A stretch of 64,000 bases of DNA from a virus. Shown piece after piece: positions 3,772-57,281 of the stretch (its first letter is position 1; each line of letters begins with the position of its first letter). A program made the translations under genes and the position numbers. The notes beneath the pieces are model-generated. The model ran no database searches, had not been told where the DNA came from, and saw only the letters and a list, made by a program, of their open reading frames with translations. The DNA lies in IMG/VR virus record IMGVR_UViG_3300030524_000001; one strand, given 5' to 3'.

Positions 3772-4527
3772 TTACGGGGTGGCGAGGATGCCCTTGGTGC
3801 GGGCGGCGGCGAGCCACTGCGGGAACTCGTGCATGAGGCCGTCGTAGAGTTCGGCGTCGGTGAGGTTCGCGGGGTGGTCGCCGACGGCGAAGAGGCTGGC
3901 GTTGTCGACGACGCGGCGGTCGAGGGTGTCGAGGTCCTGCAGGAACGCGAAGTGGCTGCCGAAGCCGAGGAAACTCCAGAAGATCGGCAGCGCGGACGCG
4001 GACCGGATCGCGGACCGCACGAGGTCTTCGGTGCCGGGGTTGGGTTCGCCGTCGGTCTGGAACACGACGAACGCCGGGTCGGTGGCCTTCGCGGCGGTGT
4101 AGTGCCGGATCACGGCGTTGATCGCGGCGTCGTAGCGGGTGCCGCCCATCGAGCCGAGGCGCTGGTGCTCGCGGGTGATGACGCCCCGGTAGTCGTCCAA
4201 CGACACCTCGACGGCGGGGTAGGCGACGTTGTCGAAGAAGATGACGGGGACGATGCCGTCGTCGTCCAAGTTCGCAGACAGGCCCAGCGTCTGCTCGGCG
4301 AGGCGCTGCACCGCCCCGGACTGGTAGTGGCCGGCCATGGACCCGGACCGGTCCGCGACCAGGTACACGGCGGCACGGGTGCCGAGCAGGCCCTTCTTCT
4401 CCAGGCTGATCGCGGCCTTCTTGACCAGGCTCGTCAACGCCGGGGCCTGCGACTGCGGGACCTGGTGCGTGGCCGGCGGCTCCTCGAACACGGTGGCGGG
4501 CTTGGCCTTGCGGGCGAAGAGGCTCAT
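3772..4527 (-). CDS. vWA domain protein (TerF-like vWA family)
   Basis: VKKAAISLEKKGL...AVYLVADRSGSM MIDAS DxSxS, FQTDGEP, PIFWSFLGFG, DNA; pattern of the Ter-associated vWA family. Confidence 0.85.
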   Translation of the reverse strand: MSLFARKAKPATVFEEPPATHQVPQSQAPALTSLVKKAAISLEKKGLLGTRAAVYLVADRSGSMAGHYQSGAVQRLAEQTLGLSANLDDDGIVPVIFFDNVAYPAVEVSLDDYRGVITREHQRLGSMGGTRYDAAINAVIRHYTAAKATDPAFVVFQTDGEPNPGTEDLVRSAIRSASALPIFWSFLGFGSHFAFLQDLDTLDRRVVDNASLFAVGDHPANLTDAELYDGLMHEFPQWLAAARTKGILATP

Positions 4528-4603
4528 CTTGATCTCCTTGCGAGGGTTGAGGGTTGGGGTGGCTCCGGCGGTCGGGGGCCCGCCGGAGCCGGACTGTGGG
4601 CGG

Positions 4604-5221
4604 TCAGCTGGCGTCGGTACGCTCGTCCTCGGTGAAGGCGTAGAGCCCGGACGAGGTGCCGCGGGCGACCATGCGCCCGGCTGAGGTCATCGAGTCGGTG
4701 GTGTTCGCGGAGGCGTAGGAGAGCGTCGTGCCGCGGGCGATGCCCATGCCTCCGGCGGCGGCGAACGCGTCCTGGTCGGCGCCGAGAAAAACGAAGCGCC
4801 AGGCGAACGACTCCTGCTGAGCGGTGATCATCTGCTTGACGGTGGCGAGACTGAACTCGCGGGACTGGTTCTCCTCGCCGTCGGTGAGGATCACGACGAT
4901 GACCTCGCCCGGCCGGTCGTCCTCGGCCTTCGCGGCCAGTTGCGCGCCCACGGTGGAGATGGTCCGGCCGACCGCGTCGAGCAGGGCGGTGCCGCCGCGC
5001 GGCAGGAGCTGGTAGTCGGGGACGTCGGCGAGCGGCAGATTCTCGTAGACGGGCTCGTACTCGGTGTCGAACTGGTACAGCGACACGGTCGTCTCGCCGG
5101 GTGCTGCCTGCTGCTCGGCGAGGAACGCCTTCAGGCCGCCCTCGGTGTCCGTCTTGACGCTGTACATGGAGCCGGAGCGGTCGAGGACGATGGCGATGTG
5201 CCGCAGGTCGGGATTGGTCAC
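4604..5221 (-). CDS. vWA domain protein
   Basis: IVLDRSGSM, PRGGTALLDA, VILTDGEENQSRE, FVFLGADQDA. Confidence 0.9.
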   Translation of the reverse strand: MTNPDLRHIAIVLDRSGSMYSVKTDTEGGLKAFLAEQQAAPGETTVSLYQFDTEYEPVYENLPLADVPDYQLLPRGGTALLDAVGRTISTVGAQLAAKAEDDRPGEVIVVILTDGEENQSREFSLATVKQMITAQQESFAWRFVFLGADQDAFAAAGGMGIARGTTLSYASANTTDSMTSAGRMVARGTSSGLYAFTEDERTDAS

Positions 5222-16359: not shown

Positions 16360-17910
16360 ATGCCCAGGCAACCTCCAGCAGGCGACCTCATCCCTGCCAT
16401 CGGCTACGTGCGCGTGTCGACGTGGAACGAAGAAAAGATCTCCGACGAGATCCAGAAATCCGTCATCGAAGACGCCGCCCGCAGAGCCGGCCGCCGCATC
16501 GTCGGCTGGATCCCCGACCTCGACGCCACCGGACGCAACTTCAAACGCCGCATCATGGAAGCCATTGAGGCCGTCGAGAACCGCTCCATGCACGGCGCGC
16601 GGGAGATCTGGGTATGGAAGTTCAGCAGGTTCGGCCGCTCCCGCCACGGCGTCATCATCAACCTCGCCCGCGTCGAGCACGTTGGCGGCCAACTCATCTC
16701 CGCGACCGAGCAGATCGACGCCACCACCGCCACAGGCCGTTTCACCCGCGGCATGCTCTTCGAGATCGCCGCATTCGAATCCGAGCGCGCCGGCGAACTC
16801 TGGTGCGAGACGCACGAGTGGCGCCGCAAGAACGGACTCCCCGCCACGGGAGGCCACCGGTTCGGTTACCTCTGGACACCGCGCCTGGACCCTTTCGGCA
16901 AGCCCCAGGAAGAGTCCTACGATCCTGTCGAGGAGCCGGGCGATGCCCTGGACGAAGCCTACGTGCGCTACGTCGAGGGAGAGGGCTACTACCCGCTGGC
17001 CGTGGACCTCAACGGGATTGGCCTGTTCAACCCGCACAAGCGCTGCAAGGGCCCGTGGTCGGCCCAGTCGCTGCAGCAGTACATGGACTCCGGGTTCGGG
17101 GCGGGGATGCTCCACGTCCACCAGCGCGATATCGCGTGCGGGAACCGGCAGCAGTGCCCGGAGAAGAAGGAGCACTACCACTACATCCCCGGAGCGCATC
17201 CTCCCGTGGTCAAGGACGAGGAGACTTGGCTTGCCTACCTGGAGCGTCGTGCACAGCGCAAGAAGCTTCCGCCTCGGTCGCGGATCCCCACATACCCGCT
17301 GAGCAACAGGATGCGGTGCGATCTGTGCAGCGGGTCGTCCATCGCCACGATGGCCAACGGGGTTCTGGGTGGCGCATGGCGGTGTGCGCGGCATGTGAGT
17401 GCGGCGAAGTCGTGCCCGGGGTGCTACGTCACGACGAAACGGGTCATGGCCGACCTGTGGATCTGGCTCGACGGCGTCGAGGCGCAGGTCGATGCGATTG
17501 CGTGCGGCGAGTGGGCAGAACGTGCGCCGGTGAAGCGGCCTGATAAGTCGGCGGCGCGGGCGCGGTTCTCGCAGCAGGTCCAGGCGGCGGCGATGGCACT
17601 GGACAGGGCGTCGGATTCACTGGCGCGCGGCGTGATGCCGGAGGAGAGCTACCTGCGGCTGAAGGACAAGCTGACGTCAGAGCAGTTGCAGGCCGAGCAG
17701 AAGCTGTTGGCCCTGAACACGGGTGACGTGGAGGAACCGGGGCGGCCGACGGAGGCTCACGCTGCGGTTGTTCGCCAGCTCCGCAGGGAGTGGGATGTGA
17801 TGTCGGTGCAGGGGAAGCACGACCTACTGGGGAAGGTGATCCGGGAGGTCAGGATCAGTCCGGCAGGTGTCGAGCCGAGGTGTAACTTCGTTCCCGTCTG
17901 GGCTAACTGA
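16360..17910 (+). CDS. int: large serine recombinase (integrase)
   Basis: GYVRVST catalytic motif, VWKFSRFGR, recombinase domain GGHRFGY, zinc ribbon CDLC...WRC...C, coiled coil. Confidence 0.95.
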   Translation: MPRQPPAGDLIPAIGYVRVSTWNEEKISDEIQKSVIEDAARRAGRRIVGWIPDLDATGRNFKRRIMEAIEAVENRSMHGAREIWVWKFSRFGRSRHGVIINLARVEHVGGQLISATEQIDATTATGRFTRGMLFEIAAFESERAGELWCETHEWRRKNGLPATGGHRFGYLWTPRLDPFGKPQEESYDPVEEPGDALDEAYVRYVEGEGYYPLAVDLNGIGLFNPHKRCKGPWSAQSLQQYMDSGFGAGMLHVHQRDIACGNRQQCPEKKEHYHYIPGAHPPVVKDEETWLAYLERRAQRKKLPPRSRIPTYPLSNRMRCDLCSGSSIATMANGVLGGAWRCARHVSAAKSCPGCYVTTKRVMADLWIWLDGVEAQVDAIACGEWAERAPVKRPDKSAARARFSQQVQAAAMALDRASDSLARGVMPEESYLRLKDKLTSEQLQAEQKLLALNTGDVEEPGRPTEAHAAVVRQLRREWDVMSVQGKHDLLGKVIREVRISPAGVEPRCNFVPVWAN

Positions 17911-25123: not shown

Positions 25124-25972
25124 CTACGCCGCGAGTCGCTGCCGGCTCATCGCCAACTCGGCGACCACCAGCTGCTCCCACTGCCCCAACGTCAGGTGCA
25201 CATCGTCCTCGGCGAGCTCCTCGGCCGCCAGGCACAGCCGCGCGACCATCCGGTTGAGCTTCGACAGCTCCAAGCTGGTGAGGTAGTTCTTCGCAACGCT
25301 CCGGCACGCCGCCTTCTGCGACGGCTCCGACTTGCCCTGCTCCCGGCCGGGCCACGTCTCCAGCTCCCGCACTCCCCGGATGTCAGACGCCGTCATGCCG
25401 GTGATGTGCAGGTACAGCTTGTTCTGGAGGATCGCGAACGCGAGCTGGGTCCGGCGGGTCGACGGCTCGTAGTCGGTGGCGTTCTCCGCCATCATGTCGC
25501 GGAACGTCCGGTAGTCGATCATCTCGCGGGCGCGCGCCAGGGCGGTCCGCTGGATGTCGGCAACGTCTAGGGAGAGCAGTTCGGCTTCGCGGGCCCTGAC
25601 GGCGAAGTAGACCAGGGCGGCAGCGATCTCGGGCTTGCGGGAGTCGCCGCGCATGGCCGTCAGGTAGGCGGCATGGCGGGAGAGAGCAACGTCGGCGATG
25701 CCTCGGCTGTGGCCGCGCGCGTTCTTCGTGATCTTCGTGCTGTCACGAAACTGATCTTGGCTGGAGCGTTCGCCCTGCTCGGCGGCCACCACCGCGCGCG
25801 CCTGATCCAGCGCCTCGGTGAAGTTCTCCCACCTGCTGTAGCCGAGGAGTGGCATCAGCTCGCGGGCGGACCAGTATTCCCGCCCGTAGGCGTCGACACG
25901 CCGGATCGTCTCAAATGGCGTACCTCCCTTGCTCTGGGCAGGGAGGTCCGGGGTACAGTCGGTGCTGTTCAA
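25124..25972 (-). CDS. BRO-N/DinD-like N-terminal domain with RhuM-like C-terminal domain
   Basis: TPFETIRR...EYWSARELMPLLGY..WENF...; C-terminal FAILQNKLYLHITGMTASDI...VAKNYLTSLEL..LNRMV; AGGAG RBS before TTG 25972. Confidence 0.75.
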   Translation of the reverse strand: MNSTDCTPDLPAQSKGGTPFETIRRVDAYGREYWSARELMPLLGYSRWENFTEALDQARAVVAAEQGERSSQDQFRDSTKITKNARGHSRGIADVALSRHAAYLTAMRGDSRKPEIAAALVYFAVRAREAELLSLDVADIQRTALARAREMIDYRTFRDMMAENATDYEPSTRRTQLAFAILQNKLYLHITGMTASDIRGVRELETWPGREQGKSEPSQKAACRSVAKNYLTSLELSKLNRMVARLCLAAEELAEDDVHLTLGQWEQLVVAELAMSRQRLAA

Positions 25973-26242
25973 GGAGGTCTTTCTCCTAACGAGCCACAGC
26001 CCTCGGCGGTGTCGTGACCGCGCGGGGGCTCTTTGCTGTCCGGCCATCGAACTGGTGGCCACAGAAGATGCTACGCCTACCAAGAGTCACTTCGGCAAGG
26101 ACCTTCGCACCATCACCACCCGTTTGGTGCAGGCAGATTGTCATACAAGCCACCACCTGTTGGGGTGTCACTCTTTCGAGTGGCCCACAGAGAGTTAGCT
26201 CCTCCGGGTGGACGCTGAGGACCGCGAGCACGGCGGGGCGAT

Positions 26243-27556: not shown

Positions 27557-27694
27557 TTCTGCGTCCGTGCTGGGTACATGGACGAGTGGGCCGACCTCAA
27601 CTAGATTATACAGCGTTGGTACATTTTCTGGCGGGGGTCGCCGATGCTTGATCAGCTATCCTTATTCACACCGATGGGACAAGGAGGCGACGCC

Positions 27695-27994
27695 ATGGCA
27701 AACGACGAGAAGCTCCTCGACTATGCAGGCGTGGCCAAGCTGACGGGCCTCGAAGTCGGCACGATCCGCGTCTACCGGAAGCGCACGCGCCTCCGCGAGA
27801 CCAAGAAACTGCCCATCCGCGACGAGGACTTTCCGGTGCCCGACAAGACCTTCGGCCAGTCGCCCACCTGGAAGCCGTCGACCATCGAACGCTGGCTGGC
27901 CAACCGCCCCGGCCGTGGTCGACGCAGTGCCACCAATGCCCGTGCCATCCCCGGCCGTGTCGTCATCGGCGACGACCAGCAGGACAGCGAGTAG
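27695..27994 (+). CDS. AlpA/excisionase-like HTH protein
   Basis: LLDYAGVAKLTGLEVGTIRVY...FPVPDKTFGQSPTWKPSTIERWL; AAGGAGG RBS. Confidence 0.75.
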   Translation: MANDEKLLDYAGVAKLTGLEVGTIRVYRKRTRLRETKKLPIRDEDFPVPDKTFGQSPTWKPSTIERWLANRPGRGRRSATNARAIPGRVVIGDDQQDSE

Positions 27995-28048: not shown

Positions 28049-28447
28049 ATGAGCCCCGACAGTGACGACCTTGCCGCGCGATTCGGCACCCACATCCGCG
28101 ACGCCGCAAAGCACGCCGGATACGACCTCGAAGGCCCCCGCACCGGCGGCATGACCCAACTCGCCAAAGACGCAGGCATGTCCCAGGCCACAGCCAGCCG
28201 CATGCTCGCCGGACAGGTCATCCCCGACGCCAAGAGCCTCGAAGCACTGGCCGCAGCCCTCGGCATCCCCGTCCTCGATCTGCTCGCCCGCGCCGGAGTC
28301 ATCTCGGACGAAGCCGCCGCAGCCAACCCGAGGCCGCAGCCGCTCACCGACAAGCGGGCCCTCACACACCTCGGCGTGACCGACCCGGCCGACCAGACCG
28401 CCATCCTCGCGATCATCAGCCGACTCAAGGGCCGCGCGGCCAAGTAG
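28049..28447 (+). CDS. second XRE repressor, paralogous to the immunity repressor
   Basis: GGMTQLAKDAGMSQATASRMLAGQVIPD aligns with GGRITFAEAVGVSPSTVNRWLAGKNTPD; both end in PL(T/S)...LG..DP.D. Confidence 0.8.
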   Translation: MSPDSDDLAARFGTHIRDAAKHAGYDLEGPRTGGMTQLAKDAGMSQATASRMLAGQVIPDAKSLEALAAALGIPVLDLLARAGVISDEAAAANPRPQPLTDKRALTHLGVTDPADQTAILAIISRLKGRAAK

Positions 28448-28505: not shown

Positions 28506-28732
28506 AACCGCCGGAGTGACCCGGCTTCGTGGGCGGAGTGTCAGGGTCCAGCCTCCAGGCCACTGGCGCCCGCCGATCAACCGCCCGTGAGCGGGGACCG
28601 GACAACCCATCCCTGTGCGACACCCCTATGCGGGAGCACTGGTGGCCATGGGCGGCGGCCGTCACCGCCAGGTGTCTGCGGAGCCTCCGCAGGATCGATG
28701 CCGCCCCGGACCACGCCCAGGATACTGGGCCC

Positions 28733-28924
28733 ATGGCCACCATCCGCAGCTACATCCTCAACCCGGTCAAGCGCGTCACCGACCACCGCACCGGCCGCGA
28801 AGAACACGACCCGCAAGCCGTCCTCGACGGGGACATCGACGGGTTCATCGGGGACGCGATCAAGGTGCGGGCCGAGAAGCGGCGACAAGGCGAAGGCGGA
28901 CGCGGCGGCGCACTCAAGGGCTGA
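28733..28924 (+). CDS. 63-aa protein resembling only the C-terminal tail of class I peptide release factors (no GGQ)
   Basis: MATIRSYILNPVKRVTDHRTGREEHDPQAVLDGDIDGFIGDAIK versus the RF2 tail consensus IRSYVLxPYxxVKDxRTG...NxxAVLDGxIDxFI; GATACT 6 nt before ATG. Confidence 0.7.
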   Translation: MATIRSYILNPVKRVTDHRTGREEHDPQAVLDGDIDGFIGDAIKVRAEKRRQGEGGRGGALKG

Positions 28925-28937
28925 CCAGACAGCAGAA

Positions 28938-28961
28938 CGGCCCCCGCCGAAGCGGGGGCCG
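28938..28961. terminator. hairpin between convergent genes, possibly bidirectional
   Basis: CGGCCCCCGC-CGAA-GCGGGGGCCG. Confidence 0.65.
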
Positions 28962-29005: not shown

Positions 29006-29797
29006 CTACGCCGCCACATGCCCGGCCGCAGCCAGCGCCGCCGCAACCGCAGCCTGCACCTCCGCCGCAGTCAGCTCGCCCTTCTCCACCGCCGCCAGAG
29101 CAGCCTCCGCCGCCACCAACCGCGCCGACAAGGCAGCGAGCTGCGCCGACGGGCCAGCAACCAGCGCCGCATGCAACTCGGCGATCGAATGCAGATCCAC
29201 CGGAGCCACACCACCCGCAGGCGGCTGACCAGTCACACCAGCCGCCAGCCAGTACAGCGTGTCCGCGACCGCGATCGGACGGTTCGCGGTGATCGCAGCA
29301 GTCACGATCGACCTGATCGCAGCCTCATCAGCAGCATTCAGCGGCATGTCATCCTCCGGGAGCGGGTCAACGCCCGGCCAGTAGTCGGCACAGACGGAAA
29401 GGTCGTACGGGCCGGCGTCCTCGTACTGAGCAGCCACCGCGCCGGTGGGGATCGTTGAGGCGTCGCCGTTGTAGTCGGCGATCCAGAACGGCGGCAGCGG
29501 ACGGCCGCCGAACGCAGCCTTCACCGCAGGCCATGTCGAGGAGTCGCAGTAGATCGAGCCGCCCGGGTGTGTGGCGATCCACCCCGGCGCCTCGGCCGGC
29601 GACGCGTCGCCGTTTTCGACGTCAAGAACGTCCGCCGCCGCGCTGGTGTTCACGGTCACCGTGACGTGCACCGCGTGCGGGAACCGAGCCCAGTCCTCGG
29701 ACGACCAGGCGTACGCGCCGTTGAGGTAGCCGGCCACCATCGTGGCGTCGGCGGGGATCGAAGCCGCGGACACGCTGTCGTACATGGTGCGCGTCAT
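29006..29797 (-). CDS. putative endolysin, GH25-like glycoside hydrolase
   Basis: MYDSV...VAGYLNG...LDVENGD...IYC...WIADY...AAQY...YDLS barrel pattern; last gene of lysis block. Confidence 0.65.
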   Translation of the reverse strand: MTRTMYDSVSAASIPADATMVAGYLNGAYAWSSEDWARFPHAVHVTVTVNTSAAADVLDVENGDASPAEAPGWIATHPGGSIYCDSSTWPAVKAAFGGRPLPPFWIADYNGDASTIPTGAVAAQYEDAGPYDLSVCADYWPGVDPLPEDDMPLNAADEAAIRSIVTAAITANRPIAVADTLYWLAAGVTGQPPAGGVAPVDLHSIAELHAALVAGPSAQLAALSARLVAAEAALAAVEKGELTAAEVQAAVAAALAAAGHVAA

Positions 29798-30072
29798 GCT
29801 GCTGCTCCTCTCGCCGCGATCGTCCGCGTCAGGTTGTCCAGGCGCGCATACTTCTGCTCCGTGGTGTGGCCGTCCCAGTCGGCGTCACCGCGCGGAACAT
29901 GCGCGAACAGCGGCAGGTCAGCAGTCGACAGATGCCAACTCAACTGGCCCGCGCCGGTGTCGACGTACACCACCGGCCAGTCGGGCTCGGCCGGGTCGAC
30001 GCCGATATGCGACGGATACAGGGCTGCGAGGTGCGCGACCAGGTGAGCGCGCTCGCGGTAGAGGTCATCCAT
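29794..30072 (-). CDS. small conserved phage protein ending in WDGH motif
   Basis: LYRERAHLVAHL...GQLSWH...WDGHTTEQKYARL. Confidence 0.65.
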   Translation of the reverse strand: MDDLYRERAHLVAHLAALYPSHIGVDPAEPDWPVVYVDTGAGQLSWHLSTADLPLFAHVPRGDADWDGHTTEQKYARLDNLTRTIAARGAAA

Positions 30073-30622
30073 GGGCGCGGGCCGCCTTCTTCGCGGCCGC
30101 GGCGAGGATGTGCTGATGGATCGCGTCGACCCGGGACCGGGCCTCCGCAGCCACGTACGGGTCGTGGATGACCTCGCACACGTTGTCCTGCAGGCCCTCA
30201 CCGGACGCCGACCAGTTCGTCGAGCCGGTGACCACGATCTCGCCGTCCACGATCACGAGCTTGAGGTGGACTATGGCATTTTCCTCGGACCGGCCGATCG
30301 CCACCGACGACGCCGGATACGCCTCCCGCGCCAGCAGCGTGCGCTCGTGCACGCCACCGGCCTGCGAGGAGTCGAACGTCAACTGCACGACGATGGACGG
30401 GTCCGCGAGCTTCGCCTTGATGATGTCCGCCAGCTCGTCATCATCGAACCCGAACATGCTGATGATCAGCGAATGCCGCGCAGAGGCGACGACATCCCGC
30501 AGAACAGAATGAACATCATCGACAGGGCTGTAGAACGCGCGGTAGCCCGGCAGGTAGCGGGCCGGGAAGCCGCCCGTCTTGTAGCCGTCGAGCAGGGACA
30601 GGTCAGCGAGAGCCACGGTCAC
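30065..30622 (-). CDS. single-HKD phospholipase D superfamily protein (Nuc/PLD6-like)
   Basis: HLKLVIVDGEIVVTGSTNWS = HxK(x4)D(x6)GSxN; QDN; GTGA-coupled to the protease. Confidence 0.88.
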   Translation of the reverse strand: MTVALADLSLLDGYKTGGFPARYLPGYRAFYSPVDDVHSVLRDVVASARHSLIISMFGFDDDELADIIKAKLADPSIVVQLTFDSSQAGGVHERTLLAREAYPASSVAIGRSEENAIVHLKLVIVDGEIVVTGSTNWSASGEGLQDNVCEVIHDPYVAAEARSRVDAIHQHILAAAAKKAARAHG

Positions 30623-50039: not shown

Positions 50040-51503
50040 CTACTCCTCGCCTTCGTCGGGGATCGCGGTTGACGGCGGGGGAGCGCCGGGGACATCGGCA
50101 TCCGCCGGCGAAAGCACACAGCGACAGTTCGGGTGAAGCGGCGGCACGGGCGCGTCGGCGATGGCGTACGGGCTGCCGCTCTCGGCGTCCTGGCAGGCCG
50201 CGCAGACGTTGTTGCCGCCGGCGGTCCAGTAGTTGAGCATGGTGACGCCGCCGTCAGTGAATGTGCCGACCGCGCCGCTGCTCCATGCCTGGCCCATGGC
50301 CATGTCGAGGGGGGCGGTGACCGGGGTGGCGCCGTCGCCGGTGAGTGCGGCGCGGACGGCGGCGAGGAGCGCTGCGAGGGTCAGCTTCGCGGCGAAGCCC
50401 TTGGCGAGGAGTCGCGCGAGTGTCGAAGCCGCGCCGGACATGATTTTCGCTGCGACGGGTGGTGCCTGCCCCCAGGTCGTGAGGTCGCTGATGTCGTCGC
50501 GGGCTGAGTCGTAGGCGGCGGCCATGTCGTGCTTGCTGCCGCTGATGGCACGCCCTGCCGCTGCACCTTCAGCCTGGGCATCACCCAGCGCAGTGGTGAT
50601 GCTGTCGAGGAACTTCTGGTAGGCGGGGTCGGCCATGTTGGCGCCAATGAATGCTTGGCGTGCGATGGCGAGGGCCTGCATCCTGATGGCCTGCGGCGAC
50701 TGGTCGGGCAGATTGGGTGCTTGGGCGTGGAAGCTTCCGACGAGTTCGTCGAGGGAGATGAGTTGCAGGCACTTGGCCCAGGCGGCGAGGACTGCGGCCT
50801 GGTGCTGCTTCTCGCGCTTCTCGCGGCGCTGGTAGATCAGCGCCCAGGTCCCTTCAAGCTGCCCGATCTTGATGGTGGCTTCGAGGACGGCCGGGGCATC
50901 GGGATGCCCGCACGCCCATTCGACTGCGGCGATCGAGGCTGCGCGGACCTCGTCGGTCATCGGGGCGTCGCGGACGCTGGCCCAGCCCGTGGCGAATGCG
51001 GTCCGGGCGTCCTCGCGCAGACTGCTGGCGGTCTCACTGGCGAGGGTGTAGCCGGTGCGGTCGCCTGCGTGGACGGCGTTGACCGTGGTGAACAGGACGG
51101 GCGTGCACGGGATGCGGTCGATGGGCGACTCGGCGTCCGGGTCGATGAATGCGATCGAGATGTGCGCGGTGTGGCCGTGCTCGCGCGGGACGTCTATGCC
51201 GTGCGCGGCGAGTACATCAAGGGTGTCGCGGCGCAGGTCCTCGATTCCGGGCCCGTCGACGAGGGCAACGATGACATCCAGTTCGCCGCCGGTGAACCGG
51301 GCATGGCCGGAGATGCTTGCCTGGATCGGTGGCCGGTCGGCGAGGCTCGCCGCGACCTTGCGCAGCGTGTCCCGGTCGACGCCGACCGCCGGGCCCGTGT
51401 AGGCAATCGTGCAATGCATGGACTCGGGCAAGATGCCGCCAGGGACGGCAAGCTGCTCGGCGAGGTCAAGCGGCGGATACAGGGCGATCATGCTGCCGTT
51501 CAC
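50040..51503 (-). CDS. 2H-phosphoesterase (Acb1/LigT-like) domain fused to MuF minor head protein
   Basis: N-terminal MHCTIAY and HTAHISIAF (HxT/HxS pair); C-terminal W...VCAAC...PPLHPNCRCVL MuF signature. Confidence 0.8.
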   Translation of the reverse strand: MNGSMIALYPPLDLAEQLAVPGGILPESMHCTIAYTGPAVGVDRDTLRKVAASLADRPPIQASISGHARFTGGELDVIVALVDGPGIEDLRRDTLDVLAAHGIDVPREHGHTAHISIAFIDPDAESPIDRIPCTPVLFTTVNAVHAGDRTGYTLASETASSLREDARTAFATGWASVRDAPMTDEVRAASIAAVEWACGHPDAPAVLEATIKIGQLEGTWALIYQRREKREKQHQAAVLAAWAKCLQLISLDELVGSFHAQAPNLPDQSPQAIRMQALAIARQAFIGANMADPAYQKFLDSITTALGDAQAEGAAAGRAISGSKHDMAAAYDSARDDISDLTTWGQAPPVAAKIMSGAASTLARLLAKGFAAKLTLAALLAAVRAALTGDGATPVTAPLDMAMGQAWSSGAVGTFTDGGVTMLNYWTAGGNNVCAACQDAESGSPYAIADAPVPPLHPNCRCVLSPADADVPGAPPPSTAIPDEGEE

Positions 51504-53145: not shown

Positions 53146-54753
53146 TCACCTCCCTGCTCCTACGAGTTCGCGGGCAGGCGGGAGTTCGGCGAGGGCCTGG
53201 GTGCGGCGCGCCCGGTAGGTGCGCCGCCATTCCTCGTCGAGGCTCTCGCGGGGCCCCGTGCCTTGCGGCAGGTCGCCGGCCAGGCCGGGGCCGTCCTCGG
53301 GGCCGAGCGGCGACGCGTCGAACGGGACGGGCTGGACAACGGGCGGCTCAACGGGATCCGGCTTGCTGAGCGTCACCGGGGTGCCGGGTGTCGGGGCGTC
53401 GGGCTCCAGGGAGGTGCCCTTGAGCTTCATGGCAATGCCGGCCTTGGACATGGCGTCCATGTCGGACCACTTGACGAGGTTCTGGCGGTCGACCAGGACC
53501 GGGTCGTCGCCGCCGTCGACGGGGGGTTCGCCGATCTCGTCGCGGACGCGGTTCAGGGTGTAGGAGCCGTTGCGCAGGCGGGTGTCGCGGATGTTCTCAA
53601 CGGTCGTCGAGTCGCGGTAGTCGATCTCGGGGAATTCGAGGTGCCAGTCCTCGATGCCGAAGCCCTGCTGCAGCAGATGAAAGTTGATCTTCTCCAGGAC
53701 GAGGGACTGCACCGGGATGATGGTGTTGATTCGCAGCGTTTTGTCCTGAGACTCCCCAGTGCCGCCGCCCAGGTTGCCGGACTCGATGATCCCCAGCTTG
53801 CCCGGCGGGACACCAAACGTGGCGATGATCTCGTCGCGCAGTTGCTTGCTGGCGGCCAGGTAGTCGGTGACCTTGCGCGGGTCCAGGACCTCGACCTTGC
53901 CGTCGCCGGTCGTGATCGTGGGGTTGCCGACCGCCTTCGGCCCCAGATTGAAGACCATGTACTGCTCGCGCCACCGCTGCACCTCAGTGTCGGACAGGTG
54001 CCCGAGGTCGACGTGGATCCGCGGCGGGTCGCCCCGGCGGAAACACTCCTTGATCGTCGCTTCGGTGAACAGCCACGCCGTCACCGGCAGCAGTGCCTTC
54101 TGCGTCGGACCCACCCCGTAGGAGCCACCCCGCGGCGCGTCCAGCGAGATGTGGATGACCTGCTCCGGAGTGAACTCGGCCGTCCGCGTGCCGCCCAGGC
54201 CGTCCACAACCTGGATGTACCCGGTGACCTCGCCGTGCGCGTCCGCGACGACCGTCATCGTCGTCGAGTCCAGGGTGTACAGCGCGACCGGCTCGCCCAG
54301 CAGCGTCACGATCTCGATGTACGCGTCCCCGAACAAGTTCAGGTCGATCACAGCGGACCGCAGGAGCTGCACCATGTCCTGGCGCGGGTTCACATACCGC
54401 ATCAGGCGGCGCAGCCGTGTCACCTCGGGCGTGTCCGGCGGCACTGTCCCGTCGTCCGACAGCGCATCCGACACCACCTGCAGGCCGCCCGCAGTGACCG
54501 TGCGTGCGATCAGATCGATCGGCGCGGCCACCCACGGGCACGTCAGGTACGCCTGGTACAGCTGCGTCATGACCTGCTGGCGTTCCTGGCTGTACGCTGC
54601 CGCGGTGCGCGACGTCGTCGGCATGAGCGCCGTGCCGTACTCGTAGCCGATACGCTGCGCGCCCGCCGCAGCCGAAGCCGACGGACCGGCCGGGGCGGCC
54701 TCGGCTACCGGGGTCCGGCGGAAGGCATCGCGGATACGTGCTCCTAGCCCCAC
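53146..54753 (-). CDS. portal protein
   Basis: YLTCPWVAAPIDLIA...NLFGDAYIEI...IIATFGVPPGKLG...TLNRVRDEIGEPPVDGGD; follows terminase. Confidence 0.93.
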   Translation of the reverse strand: MGLGARIRDAFRRTPVAEAAPAGPSASAAAGAQRIGYEYGTALMPTTSRTAAAYSQERQQVMTQLYQAYLTCPWVAAPIDLIARTVTAGGLQVVSDALSDDGTVPPDTPEVTRLRRLMRYVNPRQDMVQLLRSAVIDLNLFGDAYIEIVTLLGEPVALYTLDSTTMTVVADAHGEVTGYIQVVDGLGGTRTAEFTPEQVIHISLDAPRGGSYGVGPTQKALLPVTAWLFTEATIKECFRRGDPPRIHVDLGHLSDTEVQRWREQYMVFNLGPKAVGNPTITTGDGKVEVLDPRKVTDYLAASKQLRDEIIATFGVPPGKLGIIESGNLGGGTGESQDKTLRINTIIPVQSLVLEKINFHLLQQGFGIEDWHLEFPEIDYRDSTTVENIRDTRLRNGSYTLNRVRDEIGEPPVDGGDDPVLVDRQNLVKWSDMDAMSKAGIAMKLKGTSLEPDAPTPGTPVTLSKPDPVEPPVVQPVPFDASPLGPEDGPGLAGDLPQGTGPRESLDEEWRRTYRARRTQALAELPPARELVGAGR

Positions 54754-57281
54754 GGTCCACCGCCCCCCGTCGCGACGGGGAAACCGCCGAAGCTCGTCGG
54801 CAGCTGCGCCGGAGGGAGAGGAACGGTGACCGCGGGTTGGGCCTGCGGGTCGACGTGGGTTGTCTCAGGCTCTTCGCCAGGGAAGTGCCAGCGGGACTCA
54901 CCACCGATCGACATGATCAGGTAGCGGCAGTTGTGCACCAGGACGCCGTTGGCGAAGTACTCCTCGACGTCTTCGACGGAAAGGTTGTATACGTCAGCCC
55001 GTCCGGCGTCGGACAGTCCAAGAACATGCGCGGGAGCAATTTCGGGTCGAGGCGTAGCGATTGATGCGGAACGTCTCGCCGCAGCCCTCGCACGTGCGGT
55101 CCACGTCGTCGATTCCGCTCGCCTTTCGGGCATAGGCGCGGCACTTCCCAGAACAAAACCGCGTCGATTCGTTGCGGTCGGTAGTTTCGAACACCTCGCC
55201 GCAATGCGCGCACGCCAGCGTGCGCGGCTCGCGCCCGATCCAAGCTCGCCTTCCGTTCTCGGAGTGCCAGGCACGCCCCTCGTCGCTGCGGTGCCATTCT
55301 GCGGCCAGCTGCTGGTTAGCCGCCCATGCCGTGCGCTGAGCATCGCTCCGCGGCTGATCCCCGTGATGAGAGCGGTGGACCTCGTTGGGCACACAGACGA
55401 GATTGTCGATCGAGTTGTTGTCTGGATCGTGGTCCCGATGATGGGTATCGAAGCCCTCGGGTATCGGGCCGTGTGCAGCCTTCCAGATTTCCTGATGGAG
55501 GCGGCCGACGCCGCGCGCGCGATGACTCCCGCCTGGCGTGAAGTAGACCTGTTCAGTTCTGCGCTTGGCGTCCGGATAGCGGCGGAAAGTGATGCCGTTG
55601 AAGACGACAGATTCAACCCTTGGGCGCTTGCGTGGCATGTCTGAATTCTATCAAGGTATCTCAGGGAATCGAGCCGAACGAAGCCTTCCCCCTGCACGAA
55701 GACGGGATGATTCCCGGTTCCAATCAGCTCGCGTCCGTTGCTCATTGAGACCTTGAGTACGGGCTGCGCAATGCCAGTGCGAGCTGAGTCGCGCACCCGT
55801 CGCCACCCCTGTCGGGTCATCACTTCGTCGCCGACGCGGACGTCCTCGATGGGGACGTCGCCGCGGCTCGTGGAGATCAGCGTCCCGGCAACGAAGCAGG
55901 CGTCGTACCAATGGTCTGGGCCATCGGTGTCGACGTCCTCCGGCCGGTGCGGATCGCGCGGCAGCTCGCCCATGGTCTTCGTGAACTGCGGGCAGGCGCC
56001 GTCGAGGATATGCAGCAGCGGGCAGGTCGCCCAACCGAGTTCGCGGTGGTAGGCGCACGCTGGCGCTTCGGCGAGGTAGGTGTGCATGCGGGCCTTGCCG
56101 CCGAGCCGGTCGGTGTCGGCCTTCGTCAGGTGCAGGCCCTCGGTCGCCATCTGATCGGCCGGCGGGAGCGAGGACCCCGTCTTGCCCCACATGGCGGGGT
56201 CGGCCGCGATCGCCAGCACATGATGGCCGGCGTTGGCGTCGAGGATCTGCCGGGCCTGCTCGCGCTCCGGTGTCTGGACCATCGTCAGCTCGCGGTAGAA
56301 CCACAGCCGCCCGTCGCCGTCCTTCGCCGCGGCCAGGTACACCGACGGCGCTGCCCAGCCGTAGTCCATGCCGCCGCGCCGCTGCCACGATGCGGGCAGC
56401 TCGCACGGCGGGACGACGATCCGGTCGCGCTTCCAGTCCGGGAACGCGGCGTCAGGCATCGCGGACCAGTCCCCGTCCTTGATGCGTGCACGCAGGTCCG
56501 GGTCAGCGATGCCTTCGAGGCTCTTCTCGTAGTCGCCGACGTACGGATTGTCGGACGCCTTCGCGGGGATGAAGATCCGGCGCCGCCCGGCCCTGTCGAC
56601 GATCTCCTTGGTGCCGTAGTCGGTGGCGTCGACGTAGTCGTCCTTGACGACGCCGTGCCCGATGTGGCCGGGGTTGCTGGCGGAGCGTGCGCCGAGGCAG
56701 GGCACGCCTTCGACGCCGGAGCGGATGCGCGTGTAGAGGAAGTCCACGACTTCAGGCGGCATCGTGGTGCGCTCATCGATGACGAGCATGTTGATCTCCG
56801 CGCTACTGAGCGCGGCGGCCTCTTCCATGTTCTTCGCGTGCGCGAACGTCAGGATCGAGTTGCCGGGGAACCGCAGCTCGTACTTCGAGCCGTTCCAGAT
56901 TCCGCCGACCGCCTTGGCGTAGTTGTATCGCGCCAGGTTCCGCAGCACCGACTGGTTCAGCTGCGGGAACGTCTTGCGGAACCAGAAGATCTGGATGCCG
57001 GGGAAGCGGACGCAGGTGCGGATGACCAGGGCCAGCAAGCTCTGGGACTTGCCGCCGCCGCCAGCCCCGCCGTAGAGCACGTCGAGGTCTTCGTCGGGCA
57101 GGGCAAGGAACCGCTCCTGCGGGCAAGTCCCGCACATCGGCGGCAAGTCGGCCTCGGGGGTCCCGGCCAGTCGGGCGAGGACCCGCGGCTTGCAGACCGG
57201 TTCGAAGCCCAGCACCGTCAGCGTGTCGGGCTTCTCGAACTCCCGGGCCGCGTACTCGGCCCAGTCCATGGTGGCGGTCAT
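54744..57281 (-). CDS. terminase large subunit containing an intein
   Basis: YGGAGGGGKS Walker A, LVIDE Walker B, ASNPG, GMDYG nuclease, DHWYDA|CRY split by intein; spliced length 522 aa. Confidence 0.95.
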   Translation of the reverse strand: MTATMDWAEYAAREFEKPDTLTVLGFEPVCKPRVLARLAGTPEADLPPMCGTCPQERFLALPDEDLDVLYGGAGGGGKSQSLLALVIRTCVRFPGIQIFWFRKTFPQLNQSVLRNLARYNYAKAVGGIWNGSKYELRFPGNSILTFAHAKNMEEAAALSSAEINMLVIDERTTMPPEVVDFLYTRIRSGVEGVPCLGARSASNPGHIGHGVVKDDYVDATDYGTKEIVDRAGRRRIFIPAKASDNPYVGDYEKSLEGIADPDLRARIKDGDWSAMPDAAFPDWKRDRIVVPPCELPASWQRRGGMDYGWAAPSVYLAAAKDGDGRLWFYRELTMVQTPEREQARQILDANAGHHVLAIAADPAMWGKTGSSLPPADQMATEGLHLTKADTDRLGGKARMHTYLAEAPACAYHRELGWATCPLLHILDGACPQFTKTMGELPRDPHRPEDVDTDGPDHWYDACFVAGTLISTSRGDVPIEDVRVGDEVMTRQGWRRVRDSARTGIAQPVLKVSMSNGRELIGTGNHPVFVQGEGFVRLDSLRYLDRIQTCHASAQGLNLSSSTASLSAAIRTPSAELNRSTSRQAGVIARAASAASIRKSGRLHTARYPRASIPIIGTTIQTTTRSTISSVCPTRSTALITGISRGAMLSARHGRLTSSWPQNGTAATRGVPGTPRTEGELGSGASRARWRARIAARCSKLPTATNRRGFVLGSAAPMPERRAESTTWTARARAAARRSASIATPRPEIAPAHVLGLSDAGRADVYNLSVEDVEEYFANGVLVHNCRYLIMSIGGESRWHFPGEEPETTHVDPQAQPAVTVPLPPAQLPTSFGGFPVATGGGGPWG
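54994..55638 (-). CDS. HNH endonuclease overprinted in an alternative frame inside the intein
   Basis: LHQEIWKAAHGPIPEGFDTHHRDHDPDNNSIDNL...H; two CxxC...FCSxxC zinc repeats; start offset 1643 nt from TerL start, so not in the TerL frame. Confidence 0.9.
   Translation of the reverse strand: MPRKRPRVESVVFNGITFRRYPDAKRRTEQVYFTPGGSHRARGVGRLHQEIWKAAHGPIPEGFDTHHRDHDPDNNSIDNLVCVPNEVHRSHHGDQPRSDAQRTAWAANQQLAAEWHRSDEGRAWHSENGRRAWIGREPRTLACAHCGEVFETTDRNESTRFCSGKCRAYARKASGIDDVDRTCEGCGETFRINRYASTRNCSRACSWTVRRRTG
55645..55653 (-). promoter_or_regulatory. extended -10 promoter inside the intein coding sequence
   Basis: TG-A-TAGAAT, then TCAGAC, then ATG 55638 (leaderless geometry). Confidence 0.65.

What the first reader, a model, noticed from the sequence alone, without database searches (positions are those of the whole stretch)
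28721..28961. Stand-alone mini-gene matching only the C-terminal tail of peptide release factors
Seen: a 63-aa ORF with its own putative leaderless promoter (GATACT-N6-ATG) and a downstream hairpin. It reads IRSYILNPVKRVTDHRTG...DPQAVLDGDIDGFI. Established: RF1/RF2 end in IR(S/T)Y...(V/I)xDHR...VLDGxLDxxI, downstream of the catalytic GGQ loop, which is absent here. The mixed RF1-like (RVTDHR) and RF2-like (IRSY.L.P, AVLDGDIDGFI) residues and dedicated expression signals argue against a recent passive fragment. Inference: a release-factor mimic or decoy, for example against a defence protein or ribosome-rescue factor that recognises RF, or a modulator of termination. The in-frame amber 2 kb away is a speculative link.
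Basis: partly seen in the sequence, partly recalled or inferred. Interest (0 to 1): 0.72.

Follow-up and report, generated by a model that had tools for sequence, protein, structure and literature searches.

The report
Phage mini-gene copying release factor tail
A group of temperate phages of soil actinobacteria keeps, under clear purifying selection, a 63-residue gene that copies only the last domain of bacterial release factor 2 plus a glycine/arginine tail. It cannot release peptides, so it probably works by binding something in the translation-termination machinery, but its target is unknown.

Summary
Window 28733-28924 (+) encodes 63 aa whose residues 3-43 match the last 41 positions of the RF2 model (TIGR00020, E 2.9e-12; RF1 models only about 5e-4). 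No GGQ or codon-reading part lies anywhere in the 64 kb.

It is not a passive fragment:
- At least 17 further short homologues (61-93 aa, 69-79% identical) exist in peat/soil metagenomes and in one isolate, Streptacidiphilus sp. EB129.
- All lie in related temperate siphophage genomes, at the same place: convergent with the end of the lysis/tail operon.
- dN/dS is 0.25 in this frame and at least 0.47 in every other frame.
- The lysogen has an intact prfB on another contig, whose tail is about 50% identical to the mini-protein.
- A -10-like hexamer sits 6-7 nt before the ATG in seven lineages, which suggests a leaderless mRNA.

A second 62-74-aa subfamily sits inside early-gene arrays of other phage-like contigs.

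The function is inferred, not shown. The best reading is a non-catalytic mimic of RF2 domain 4 that binds the ribosome, RF2 or an RF2 partner. The proposed amber link and RF1/RF2 hybrid origin are not supported. This scan has noted other phage single-domain release-factor minis (GGQ domain) on other DNA; those notes are unchecked.

The parts
28721..28726 (+). -10-like hexamer GATACT, six bases before the ATG (candidate promoter of a leaderless mRNA)
   Evidence: Sequence. Homologous loci carry CACAAT or CACCAT (A at position 2, T at position 6) at the same distance in five further lineages, and one base further in a seventh. The sigma-70 consensus scan finds no full -35/-10 pair. Promoter activity is inferred, not shown.
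28733..28924 (+). Coding sequence of the 63-aa mini-protein (P0002), stop codon included
   Evidence: 18 aligned short proteins. GC at codon positions 1/2/3 is 0.73/0.46/0.87. dN/dS is 0.25 in this frame and 0.47-2.65 in the five others.
28739..28861 (+). Segment homologous to RF2 domain 4 (residues 3-43: IRSY strand, VTDHRTG hairpin, DPQAVLDG-IDGFI start of the C-terminal helix)
   Evidence: TIGR00020 positions 312-352 of 353, E 2.9e-12. PDB RF2 chains. Host RF2 residues 320-365 at 50% identity. dN/dS is 0.21 for codons 1-45.
28862..28921 (+). Basic helix continuation and Gly/Arg tail (residues 44-63: KVRAEKRRQGEGGRGGALKG), family-specific
   Evidence: R46, A47, R50 and A60 are invariant and G56, G58, G59 and L61 nearly invariant in A1/A2. 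dN/dS is 0.34 for codons 46-63. AF2 puts a helix at residues 35-51.
28938..28961 (.). G+C-rich hairpin between the convergent mini-gene and the 263-aa gene; candidate two-way terminator without a T run
   Evidence: 10-bp stem, GAAG loop, z = -4.5. Not conserved in relatives, where the convergent gene abuts or overlaps the stop codon.
28049..28447 (+). Upstream neighbour: 132-aa Xre/CI-type repressor-like HTH protein (context, not part of the gene)
   Evidence: Pfam HTH_3. PHROG 3949 transcriptional repressor, E 6.6e-16.
29006..29797 (-). Convergent neighbour: 263-aa last gene of the minus-strand lysis/tail operon (context)
   Evidence: Gene calls. No family hit. Homologous position in relatives.

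Best explanation
The ORF is a true accessory gene of a lineage of temperate siphophages of acid-soil actinobacteria (Streptacidiphilus-like hosts). It descends from the C-terminal domain 4 of bacterial release factor 2. It starts exactly where domain 4 starts, right after the switch loop, and has gained a conserved basic helix extension and a GGRGGAL(K/R) tail.

It lacks domain 1, the codon-reading domain 2 (SPF) and the GGQ domain 3. It therefore cannot recognise stop codons or hydrolyse peptidyl-tRNA.

Inferred mechanism: it acts purely by binding, as a mimic of domain 4. In RF2 this domain completes the beta-sheet of the domain 2/4 unit that sits in the ribosomal decoding site. The free copy, whose N-terminal strand has no partner, would bind a surface that normally meets domain 4. 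Candidates are the ribosome near the A site, RF2 itself (for example while it folds) or an RF2 partner. That would tune RF2-dependent termination or ribosome rescue.

Its own -10-like element, its place beside a repressor gene and its position at the module junction suggest moron-type expression, possibly from the prophage, as a leaderless mRNA.

Shown: homology, stand-alone state, conservation, purifying selection, phage context. Inferred: the promoter, the timing of expression, the binding target and the effect on termination.

The confidence given (0.4) is for the whole statement, mechanism included. The descriptive part alone (a real, selected phage gene derived from RF2 domain 4) I put at about 0.95.
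For: Homology limited to RF2 domain 4.

No other RF2 piece in the window, and no RF-1 or PCRF Pfam hit.

17 short homologues, nearly all starting M-x-(T/N)-(V/I)-RSY. In a profile search of 1.84 billion representatives the family is a single cluster at 124.6 bits, and the next hit scores 78.8 bits.

Purifying selection in this frame only: dN/dS 0.10-0.35 pairwise and 0.25 pooled, against at least 0.47 in the other frames; Fisher p = 5e-8 for one pair. Both the domain-4 part (0.21) and the tail (0.34) are constrained.

The residues most conserved in RF2 domain 4 (R-S-Y, D-x-R-T, V-L-D-G, D-x-F) are invariant in the family. This fits a retained domain-4-type contact.

Conserved position next to the lysis module in related phages that carry either tyrosine or serine integrases.

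The prophage in Streptacidiphilus EB129 carries the gene internally, while the host prfB, prfA and an ArfB-like gene are intact elsewhere.

The family is monophyletic (SH-aLRT 95) and lies outside the host-type actinobacterial RF2 clade.

A -10-like hexamer is conserved 6-7 nt before the ATG.

A second stand-alone subfamily (P0019, P0023, P0173-P0175; 62-74 aa) and P0144 (domain 4 plus a Cys-rich tail) occur in other phage-like contigs. Phages have therefore kept this module more than once, or in more than one setting.

The AF2 monomer model gives the expected hairpin and helix but leaves the first strand unpaired, at low confidence (pLDDT 61). This fits a domain that needs a partner.
Against: No binding, ribosome association or effect on termination has been tested.

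The phage itself ends 70% of its genes in TGA and 5% in TAA. A blunt RF2 inhibitor would hurt the phage too, so any effect must be mild, timed or specific.

The family is rare: 1 of 401 Streptomycetaceae genomes sampled, 1 of 185,579 species genomes by pattern scan, and none in 50,697 phage records or in IMG/VR. It is not a general phage strategy.

The hairpin region differs from RF2 at positions RF2 keeps (P-Y-x-x-V-K-D became P-V-K-R-V-T-D). The original contact may therefore have changed.

The promoter and leaderless start rest on a weak motif. The RNA evidence is one short metatranscriptome contig, which could be DNA carry-over.
Confidence: 0.4

Rival explanations
1. An exapted small fold with a job unrelated to termination. 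Examples are a prophage-expressed exclusion or defence accessory, a decoy for a host protein, or a small nucleic-acid binder that uses the basic helix and the RGG-like GGRGGAL tail. The RF2 ancestry would then be history only.
For: The place is typical of morons and lysogenic-conversion genes: between the immunity-type genes (repressor-like HTH at 28049-28447, Xis/MerR-like protein at 27644-27994) and the end of the late operon, with its own start signals. Upstream neighbours vary from phage to phage, as they do at accessory-gene hot spots. The tail is family-specific and conserved. Nearby genes match candidate defence families (RhuM/Bro protein against PDC-S13/S05).
Against: The residues kept invariant are those that RF2s themselves keep in domain 4. 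This is easier to explain if the old contact is still in use. There is no hit in PADLOC and no fixed partner gene.
Confidence: 0.35
2. A functionless relic: a captured piece of a host prfB 3' end that happens to stay open.
For: It is short, covers only the end of a host gene and has no Pfam family.
Against: dN/dS is 0.25 and frame-specific. In the seven lineages with DNA in hand the length is exactly 63 codons counted from the family's shared ATG, at 77-86% nucleotide identity between the six lineages compared pairwise. It is 50% identical to the lysogen's own RF2 tail. It forms a monophyletic clade apart from host RF2 tails. The upstream motif is conserved.
Confidence: 0.03
3. An integration-site feature: the phage integrates into the 3' end of host prfB and carries a replacement 3' end, or the ORF is the displaced host end.
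For: Phages that integrate into gene ends carry such duplicates. The window has a serine integrase (16360-17910) and relatives have tyrosine integrases.
Against: The gene lies 4-11 kb from the integrase genes. In the integrated prophage of EB129 it is internal, flanked by phage genes on both sides. The host prfB is intact on another contig. The gene has its own conserved ATG, and nothing RF-like lies upstream in frame.
Confidence: 0.02
4. Part of a stop-codon recoding or amber read-through system of the phage.
For: Some large phages carry release factors together with suppressor tRNAs (own knowledge; Lak phage RF hits).
Against: There are no tRNA genes in the window. No TAG has a coding signal on both sides within 24-34 kb. 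Stop usage is ordinary for a high-G+C actinobacterial phage: TGA 44, TAG 16, TAA 3. RF2 reads UGA and UAA, not UAG.
Confidence: 0.03

Closest known systems
Domain 4 (C-terminal about 45 residues) of bacterial class I release factor RF2 (prfB, TIGR00020)
   Same: Sequence homology over the whole domain: IRSY strand, hairpin, VLDGxLDxF helix (E 2.9e-12; about 50% identity to actinobacterial RF2 tails). The predicted hairpin plus helix matches.
   Different: It stands alone at 63 aa with no domains 1-3, no SPF and no GGQ. It scores 46 bits against a family cut-off of 370. It is phage-borne, has a family-specific basic/Gly-rich tail, and its hairpin is changed (PVKRVTDHRTG in place of PYxxVKDLRT).
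ArfA / BrfA / ArfT: small (about 55-75 aa) bacterial rescue factors that bind RF2 and the empty mRNA channel (own knowledge)
   Same: Similar size, a basic C-terminal tail and a possible link to RF2. ArfA binds RF2 by adding a strand to the domain 2/4 sheet, which is the kind of contact a free domain-4 strand could make.
   Different: There is no sequence relationship (no Pfam hit at E <= 1). The origin is from RF2 itself. It is phage-encoded. No evidence of RF2 binding was obtained.
ArfB / ICT1 and other stand-alone GGQ-domain proteins, including the phage mini GGQ-domain families noted earlier in this scan (unchecked AI notes)
   Same: They are single-domain derivatives of class I release factors living as small independent proteins, several of them in phages and apparently non-catalytic.
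   Different: Those are domain 3 (PF00472). This is domain 4 and has no overlap with them.
Full-length release factors encoded by large or recoded phages (for example Lak megaphages, cluster M-like mycobacterial prophages; PMC8092301)
   Same: Phage-borne release-factor sequence, presumed to reprogram translation.
   Different: Those are complete or catalytic factors, often found with tRNA arrays. Here only the non-catalytic tail domain is kept and no tRNAs are present.

Membership tests
Class I release factor RF2 (prfB, TIGR00020) | Full-length four-domain protein scoring above the curated cut-off (370 bits) | tested here: not met
   46.3 bits, model positions 312-352 only; 63 aa.
Class I release factor RF2 (prfB, TIGR00020) | GGQ peptidyl-hydrolase domain (Pfam RF-1, PF00472) | tested here: not met
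   No Pfam hit at E <= 1. There is no GGQ in the sequence. No RF2 residues 1-319 are found anywhere in the window.
Class I release factor RF2 (prfB, TIGR00020) | Codon-recognition domain 2 with the SPF motif (Pfam PCRF, PF03462) | tested here: not met
Class I release factor RF2 (prfB, TIGR00020) | C-terminal domain 4 sequence (IRSY...DxRT...VLDGxLDxFI) | tested here: met
   RF2 models score far above the RF1 models (46 against 19-20 bits).
ArfA-type RF2-recruiting rescue factors | Sequence membership (Pfam ArfA family) | tested here: not met
   The Pfam scan at E <= 1 gives only a chance Adcy_cons_dom hit.
ArfA-type RF2-recruiting rescue factors | Binds RF2 and the ribosome | tested here: inconclusive
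   The complex prediction with the lysogen's RF2 gave no verdict. It needs biochemistry.
Duplicated target-gene end at a phage attachment site | Lies at the att junction or next to the integrase, and is near-identical to the host gene end | tested here: not met
   Internal to the EB129 prophage. 4-11 kb from the integrases. 50% identity to the host RF2 tail, with host prfB intact.
Phage moron / accessory gene | Independent expression signals, position at a module junction, patchy presence among related phages | tested here: inconclusive
   The junction position and the conserved -10-like motif are seen, and a hairpin is present in this phage. Transcription was not measured beyond one RNA-library contig. 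Related phages lacking the gene were not surveyed.

The most novel reading that the evidence does not exclude
Phages of actinobacteria encode a free copy of RF2 domain 4 that docks on the ribosome, or on RF2 or its partners, and tunes RF2-dependent termination or ribosome rescue. This could serve to favour read-through or stalling at chosen sites, to disable a host RF2-dependent rescue or quality-control route during infection, or to protect the lysogen. Together with the phage GGQ-domain minis noted elsewhere in this scan, it would point to a general phage habit of using single release-factor domains as non-catalytic modulators of termination.
Probability: 0.3. Interest if true: 0.8.

Novelty: new variant of a known kind. 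Interest (0 to 1): 0.58.

Why it matters
Release factors are known as whole four-domain enzymes. I found no description of a stand-alone domain 4 in the literature held here or in Pfam, PHROGs or NCBIfam.

If the protein binds the termination machinery, it would be a natural, genetically simple tool for probing and perturbing RF2 function in high-G+C bacteria, where about 75% of genes end in RF2-read codons. It would also be a new way for phages to interfere with host translation.

It is directly testable. One carrier, Streptacidiphilus sp. EB129, is a cultured isolate, and the protein has only 63 residues.

If it has been exapted for another role, it is still a clean example of a phage domesticating a fragment of an essential host gene.

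Tried and rejected
- Complex prediction of the mini-protein (alignment A2) with the full-length RF2 of the same lysogen gave a score of 0.00, below the mark, so there is no verdict either way.
- The AF2 monomer model has low confidence (pLDDT 61). A Foldseek search of PDB with it gave no match at E <= 0.001; the weak top rows are release factors picked by sequence.
- No match was found in the 50,697 phage records by DNA or by protein at E <= 0.01. At E <= 10 only full-length release factors of unrelated phages appear. There was nothing in IMG/VR by pattern scan and only chromid prfB genes in PLSDB.
- No whole genome is held for the window.
- ESM Atlas feature search returned only unnamed small clusters at 0.94 and an RF-1 cluster at 0.85. 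These are leads only.
- PADLOC gave no hit for the mini-protein.
- Amber link: no TAG in 24-34 kb has a coding signal on both sides, and the 273-aa/PLD gene junction is TGA and out of frame.
- Metatranscriptome: one run held 5% of the words. One 166-nt contig covers 28833-28995, and a few others cover tail genes. This shows that a near relative is present in an RNA library, not that the gene is transcribed.
- Literature searches found nothing on stand-alone RF2 C-terminal domains in phages.
- The pattern scan of species genomes put Saccharibacteria RF2 tails next best (up to 66% over 38 residues). This is biased by the patterns used. The tree does not resolve the donor, so no donor is claimed.

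Full report
**What is there**

The window is 66-72% G+C and comes from soil/peat metagenome assemblies. The same protein is found on 22 contigs of up to 100 kb, and no whole genome is held for it.

The ORF runs from the ATG at 28733 to the TGA at 28922-28924 on the + strand and encodes 63 residues. Its G+C at codon positions 1/2/3 is 0.73/0.46/0.87, the pattern expected of a real gene in such DNA.

GATACT lies at 28721-28726, six bases before the ATG. A perfect 10-bp G+C stem with a GAAG loop lies at 28938-28961 (z = -4.5). It sits between this gene and the convergent 263-aa gene at 29006-29797.

**Is the release-factor likeness real?**

Yes.
- Residues 3-43 align to positions 312-352 of the 353-position RF2 model TIGR00020 (E 2.9e-12). 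The two RF1 models reach only E 4-6e-4.
- Solved RF2 chains match at E 5e-7 to 1e-4, always at their last 40-50 residues.
- A phage RF-like PHROG matches at positions 304-347 of 355.
- Pfam's RF-1 (GGQ) and PCRF models do not match at all.
- A tblastn of a complete actinobacterial RF2 against the window finds only residues 320-365, at 50% identity.
- The in-frame stretch upstream of the ATG is not RF-like.

The protein therefore corresponds to RF2 domain 4. It begins right after the switch loop (host ...SWGNQMRSYVL...; mini MATIRSYIL...). The remark about mixed RF1/RF2 residues is true for the RVTDHR hairpin, but the scores say the gene is RF2-derived.

**Is it a real gene or a relic?**

A search restricted to proteins of 34-111 aa found 17 further short proteins, 69-79% identical. 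Most are exactly 63 aa, and nearly all start M-x-(T/N)-(V/I)-RSY. Invariant residues include R5, Y7, P11, D17, R19, T20, G21, DPQAVL, G33, D36, F38, R46, A47, R50 and A60.

In a profile search of 1.84 billion cluster representatives the family is a single cluster (124.6 bits). The next hit scores 78.8 bits, and most of the rest are pieces of ordinary RF2 genes.

For seven lineages with DNA in hand:
- Nucleotide identity is 77-86% between the six distinct lineages compared pairwise, and the length is 63 codons from the shared ATG.
- Pairwise dN/dS among those six is 0.10-0.35.
- Pooled dN/dS over all seven is 0.25 in this frame, against 0.47-2.65 in the other five frames. It is 0.21 for the domain-4 part and 0.34 for the tail. 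Fisher p = 5e-8 for one pair.

The protein itself is under purifying selection.

**Where does it sit?**

Every locus with enough flank is a related temperate siphophage. The gene lies on the strand opposite to a long operon that holds:
- the tape-measure protein;
- an 1135-1144-aa tail protein, or in some relatives a Kelch-like tail protein of about 750-780 aa;
- a holin;
- a peptidase- or GH25-type lysin;
- PLD-like and WDGH proteins.

The mini-gene is convergent with that operon's last gene.

In this window the element also carries:
- a serine integrase (16360-17910);
- ParA;
- a portal protein (53146-54753);
- an intein-bearing 845-aa protein next to the portal;
- a major capsid protein.

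The same-strand upstream neighbours here are an Xis/MerR-like DNA-binding protein (27644-27994) and a repressor-like HTH protein (28049-28447). In relatives the upstream neighbour differs: an antirepressor or unknown small proteins.

Integrases are of the tyrosine or the serine type and lie 4-11 kb away.

One carrier is an isolate genome, Streptacidiphilus sp. EB129. There the gene is internal to an integrated prophage beside secA. The host's prfB (373-aa open frame, 489 bits), prfA and an ArfB-like gene are intact on other contigs. This rules out an att-site duplicate or a displaced gene end.

**Origin**

The mini-protein is about 50% identical to host-type RF2 tails. The best full-length matches in the big protein collection are 46-52% identical.

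A quick maximum-likelihood tree was built from 146 domain-4 segments. It has only 48 columns, so it is weak. It makes the family monophyletic (SH-aLRT 95), sister to P0019, and places it outside the clade of actinobacterial RF2 tails that carry GIRWR. The capture is therefore old, and the donor is unresolved.

**A second subfamily**

P0019, P0023 and P0173-P0175 (62-74 aa) begin a little earlier and keep the W of the switch loop (GSWAQHRRTYVLAPY...). They lack the Gly-rich tail.

P0023 and P0175 lie inside long same-strand arrays of small overlapping genes, typical of phage early regions. The P0023 gene has a GGAGG Shine-Dalgarno sequence, and its stop codon overlaps the start of the next gene.

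P0144 (102 aa) joins a divergent domain 4 to a Cys-rich tail on a contig that holds a GH25 lysin and a large tail gene.

Stand-alone domain-4 genes are thus a recurrent feature of actinophage-like genomes, in two different genomic settings.

**Expression signals**

In the seven lineages of the main subfamily a hexamer with A at position 2 and T at position 6 (GATACT, CACAAT, CACCAT) ends six bases before the ATG, or seven in one case. Sequence further upstream is not conserved between the deeper lineages. In three lineages a terminator-like hairpin of the upstream gene ends just before the hexamer.

The G-rich bases between hexamer and ATG are too close to the start codon to serve as a Shine-Dalgarno sequence. 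This fits the leaderless mRNAs common in actinobacteria (own knowledge), but it is inference. The consensus scan finds no full promoter.

One soil metatranscriptome holds a 166-nt contig over 28833-28995, with two differences, and pieces of the tail genes. That shows a near relative in an RNA library, not proven transcription.

**How it most likely works**

The protein cannot read stop codons or release peptides. What it keeps, under selection, are the residues that RF2s themselves conserve in domain 4.

In RF2, domain 4 completes the beta-sheet of the domain 2/4 unit that occupies the decoding site, and it follows the switch loop that couples stop recognition to GGQ docking (established structural knowledge; the switch-loop role is summarised in PMC12646239).

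The AF2 model of the free protein shows the hairpin (residues 14-25) and the helix (residues 35-51). It leaves the first strand unpaired, at low confidence, as expected of a module that needs a partner.

My best reading is a non-catalytic domain-4 mimic that binds a surface normally met by domain 4: the ribosome, RF2 or an RF2 partner. The conserved basic/Gly-rich tail would add an RNA or protein contact.

I put about 0.95 on 'real, selected, RF2-domain-4-derived phage gene' and about 0.35-0.4 on the termination-machinery mechanism.

The main rival, at about 0.35, is exaptation for an unrelated role, such as a prophage-expressed accessory or exclusion function. The moron-like position and the changed hairpin sequence allow this.

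A caution applies to any simple 'RF2 inhibitor' idea: the phage itself ends 44 of 63 called genes in TGA and 3 in TAA.

**What is not supported**
- The amber link.
- An RF1/RF2 hybrid origin.
- The passive-fragment reading and the attachment-site reading.

**Distribution and novelty**

The gene was found in:
- 1 of 401 sampled Streptomycetaceae genomes;
- 1 species genome by pattern scan of 185,579;
- no phage record, no IMG/VR contig and no plasmid.

It is otherwise seen only in peat/soil metagenomes. No library names it, and the paper searches found no description.

Earlier unchecked notes of this scan describe phage stand-alone GGQ-domain minis and an actinobacterial Clp ATPase fused to a GGQ-less RF2 module on other DNA. 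They suggest a wider theme, but they were not tested here. The one check made was that a TIGR00020 search of the EB129 genome shows no extra RF2-like module.

I class the finding as a new variant of a known kind: a single-domain derivative of class I release factors.

Noticed in passing
L036/L037 (contig OVEP011218260.1) and L006 (contig k119_388698): The 147,483-bp contig carrying homologue P0005 repeats itself after 123,320 bp, at 100% identity over the 6.7 kb compared. An independent assembly gives 123,439 bp, which equals 123,320 plus k = 119. The related element is therefore a complete circular or terminally redundant genome of about 123.3 kb, large for a temperate siphophage. It has a serine integrase, and the window's own phage has a ParA gene.
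   Followed up: partly
window 54744-57281 (-): The 845-aa protein just upstream of the portal gene carries Hint and intein-splicing domains (residues 462-784). It is probably an intein-interrupted large terminase. No terminase family was matched.
   Followed up: no
L102 261-455; proteins P0019, P0023, P0173-P0175, P0144, P0114: There is a second subfamily of stand-alone RF2 domain-4 proteins (62-74 aa) that keeps the switch-loop Trp and has no Gly tail. P0023 and P0175 sit inside arrays of small overlapping early-type phage genes, and the P0023 gene overlaps the start of the next gene. P0144 (102 aa) is a form with a Cys-rich, zinc-ribbon-like tail.
   Followed up: partly
window 25124-26083 (-): A RhuM/Bro-N family protein matches the PADLOC candidate defence families PDC-S13 (E 4e-38) and PDC-S05. 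It lies in the accessory region 3 kb upstream of the mini-gene.
   Followed up: no
window 50040-51503 (-): A 487-aa protein in the head-morphogenesis region has a weak N-terminal match to the 2'-5' RNA ligase / 2H phosphoesterase superfamily (E 3e-5, below the Pfam cut-off).
   Followed up: no
window 3772-5221 (-): Two adjacent vWA proteins are present. One is a strong TerF-C-terminal-like vWA (E 1.5e-56), an unusual cargo for a phage genome.
   Followed up: no
window 29794-30616 (-): The lysis cassette includes a PLD-like (PLDc_2) protein and a WDGH-domain protein between the peptidase-type lysin and the last 263-aa gene. This set is conserved across the related phages.
   Followed up: no
L105 (G258:C9:76190-76369): One Streptomycetaceae genome gives an RF2-tail match in an open frame of only 211 aa with a TGA inside the match (64 bits). 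It could be a broken or unusual prfB copy.
   Followed up: no
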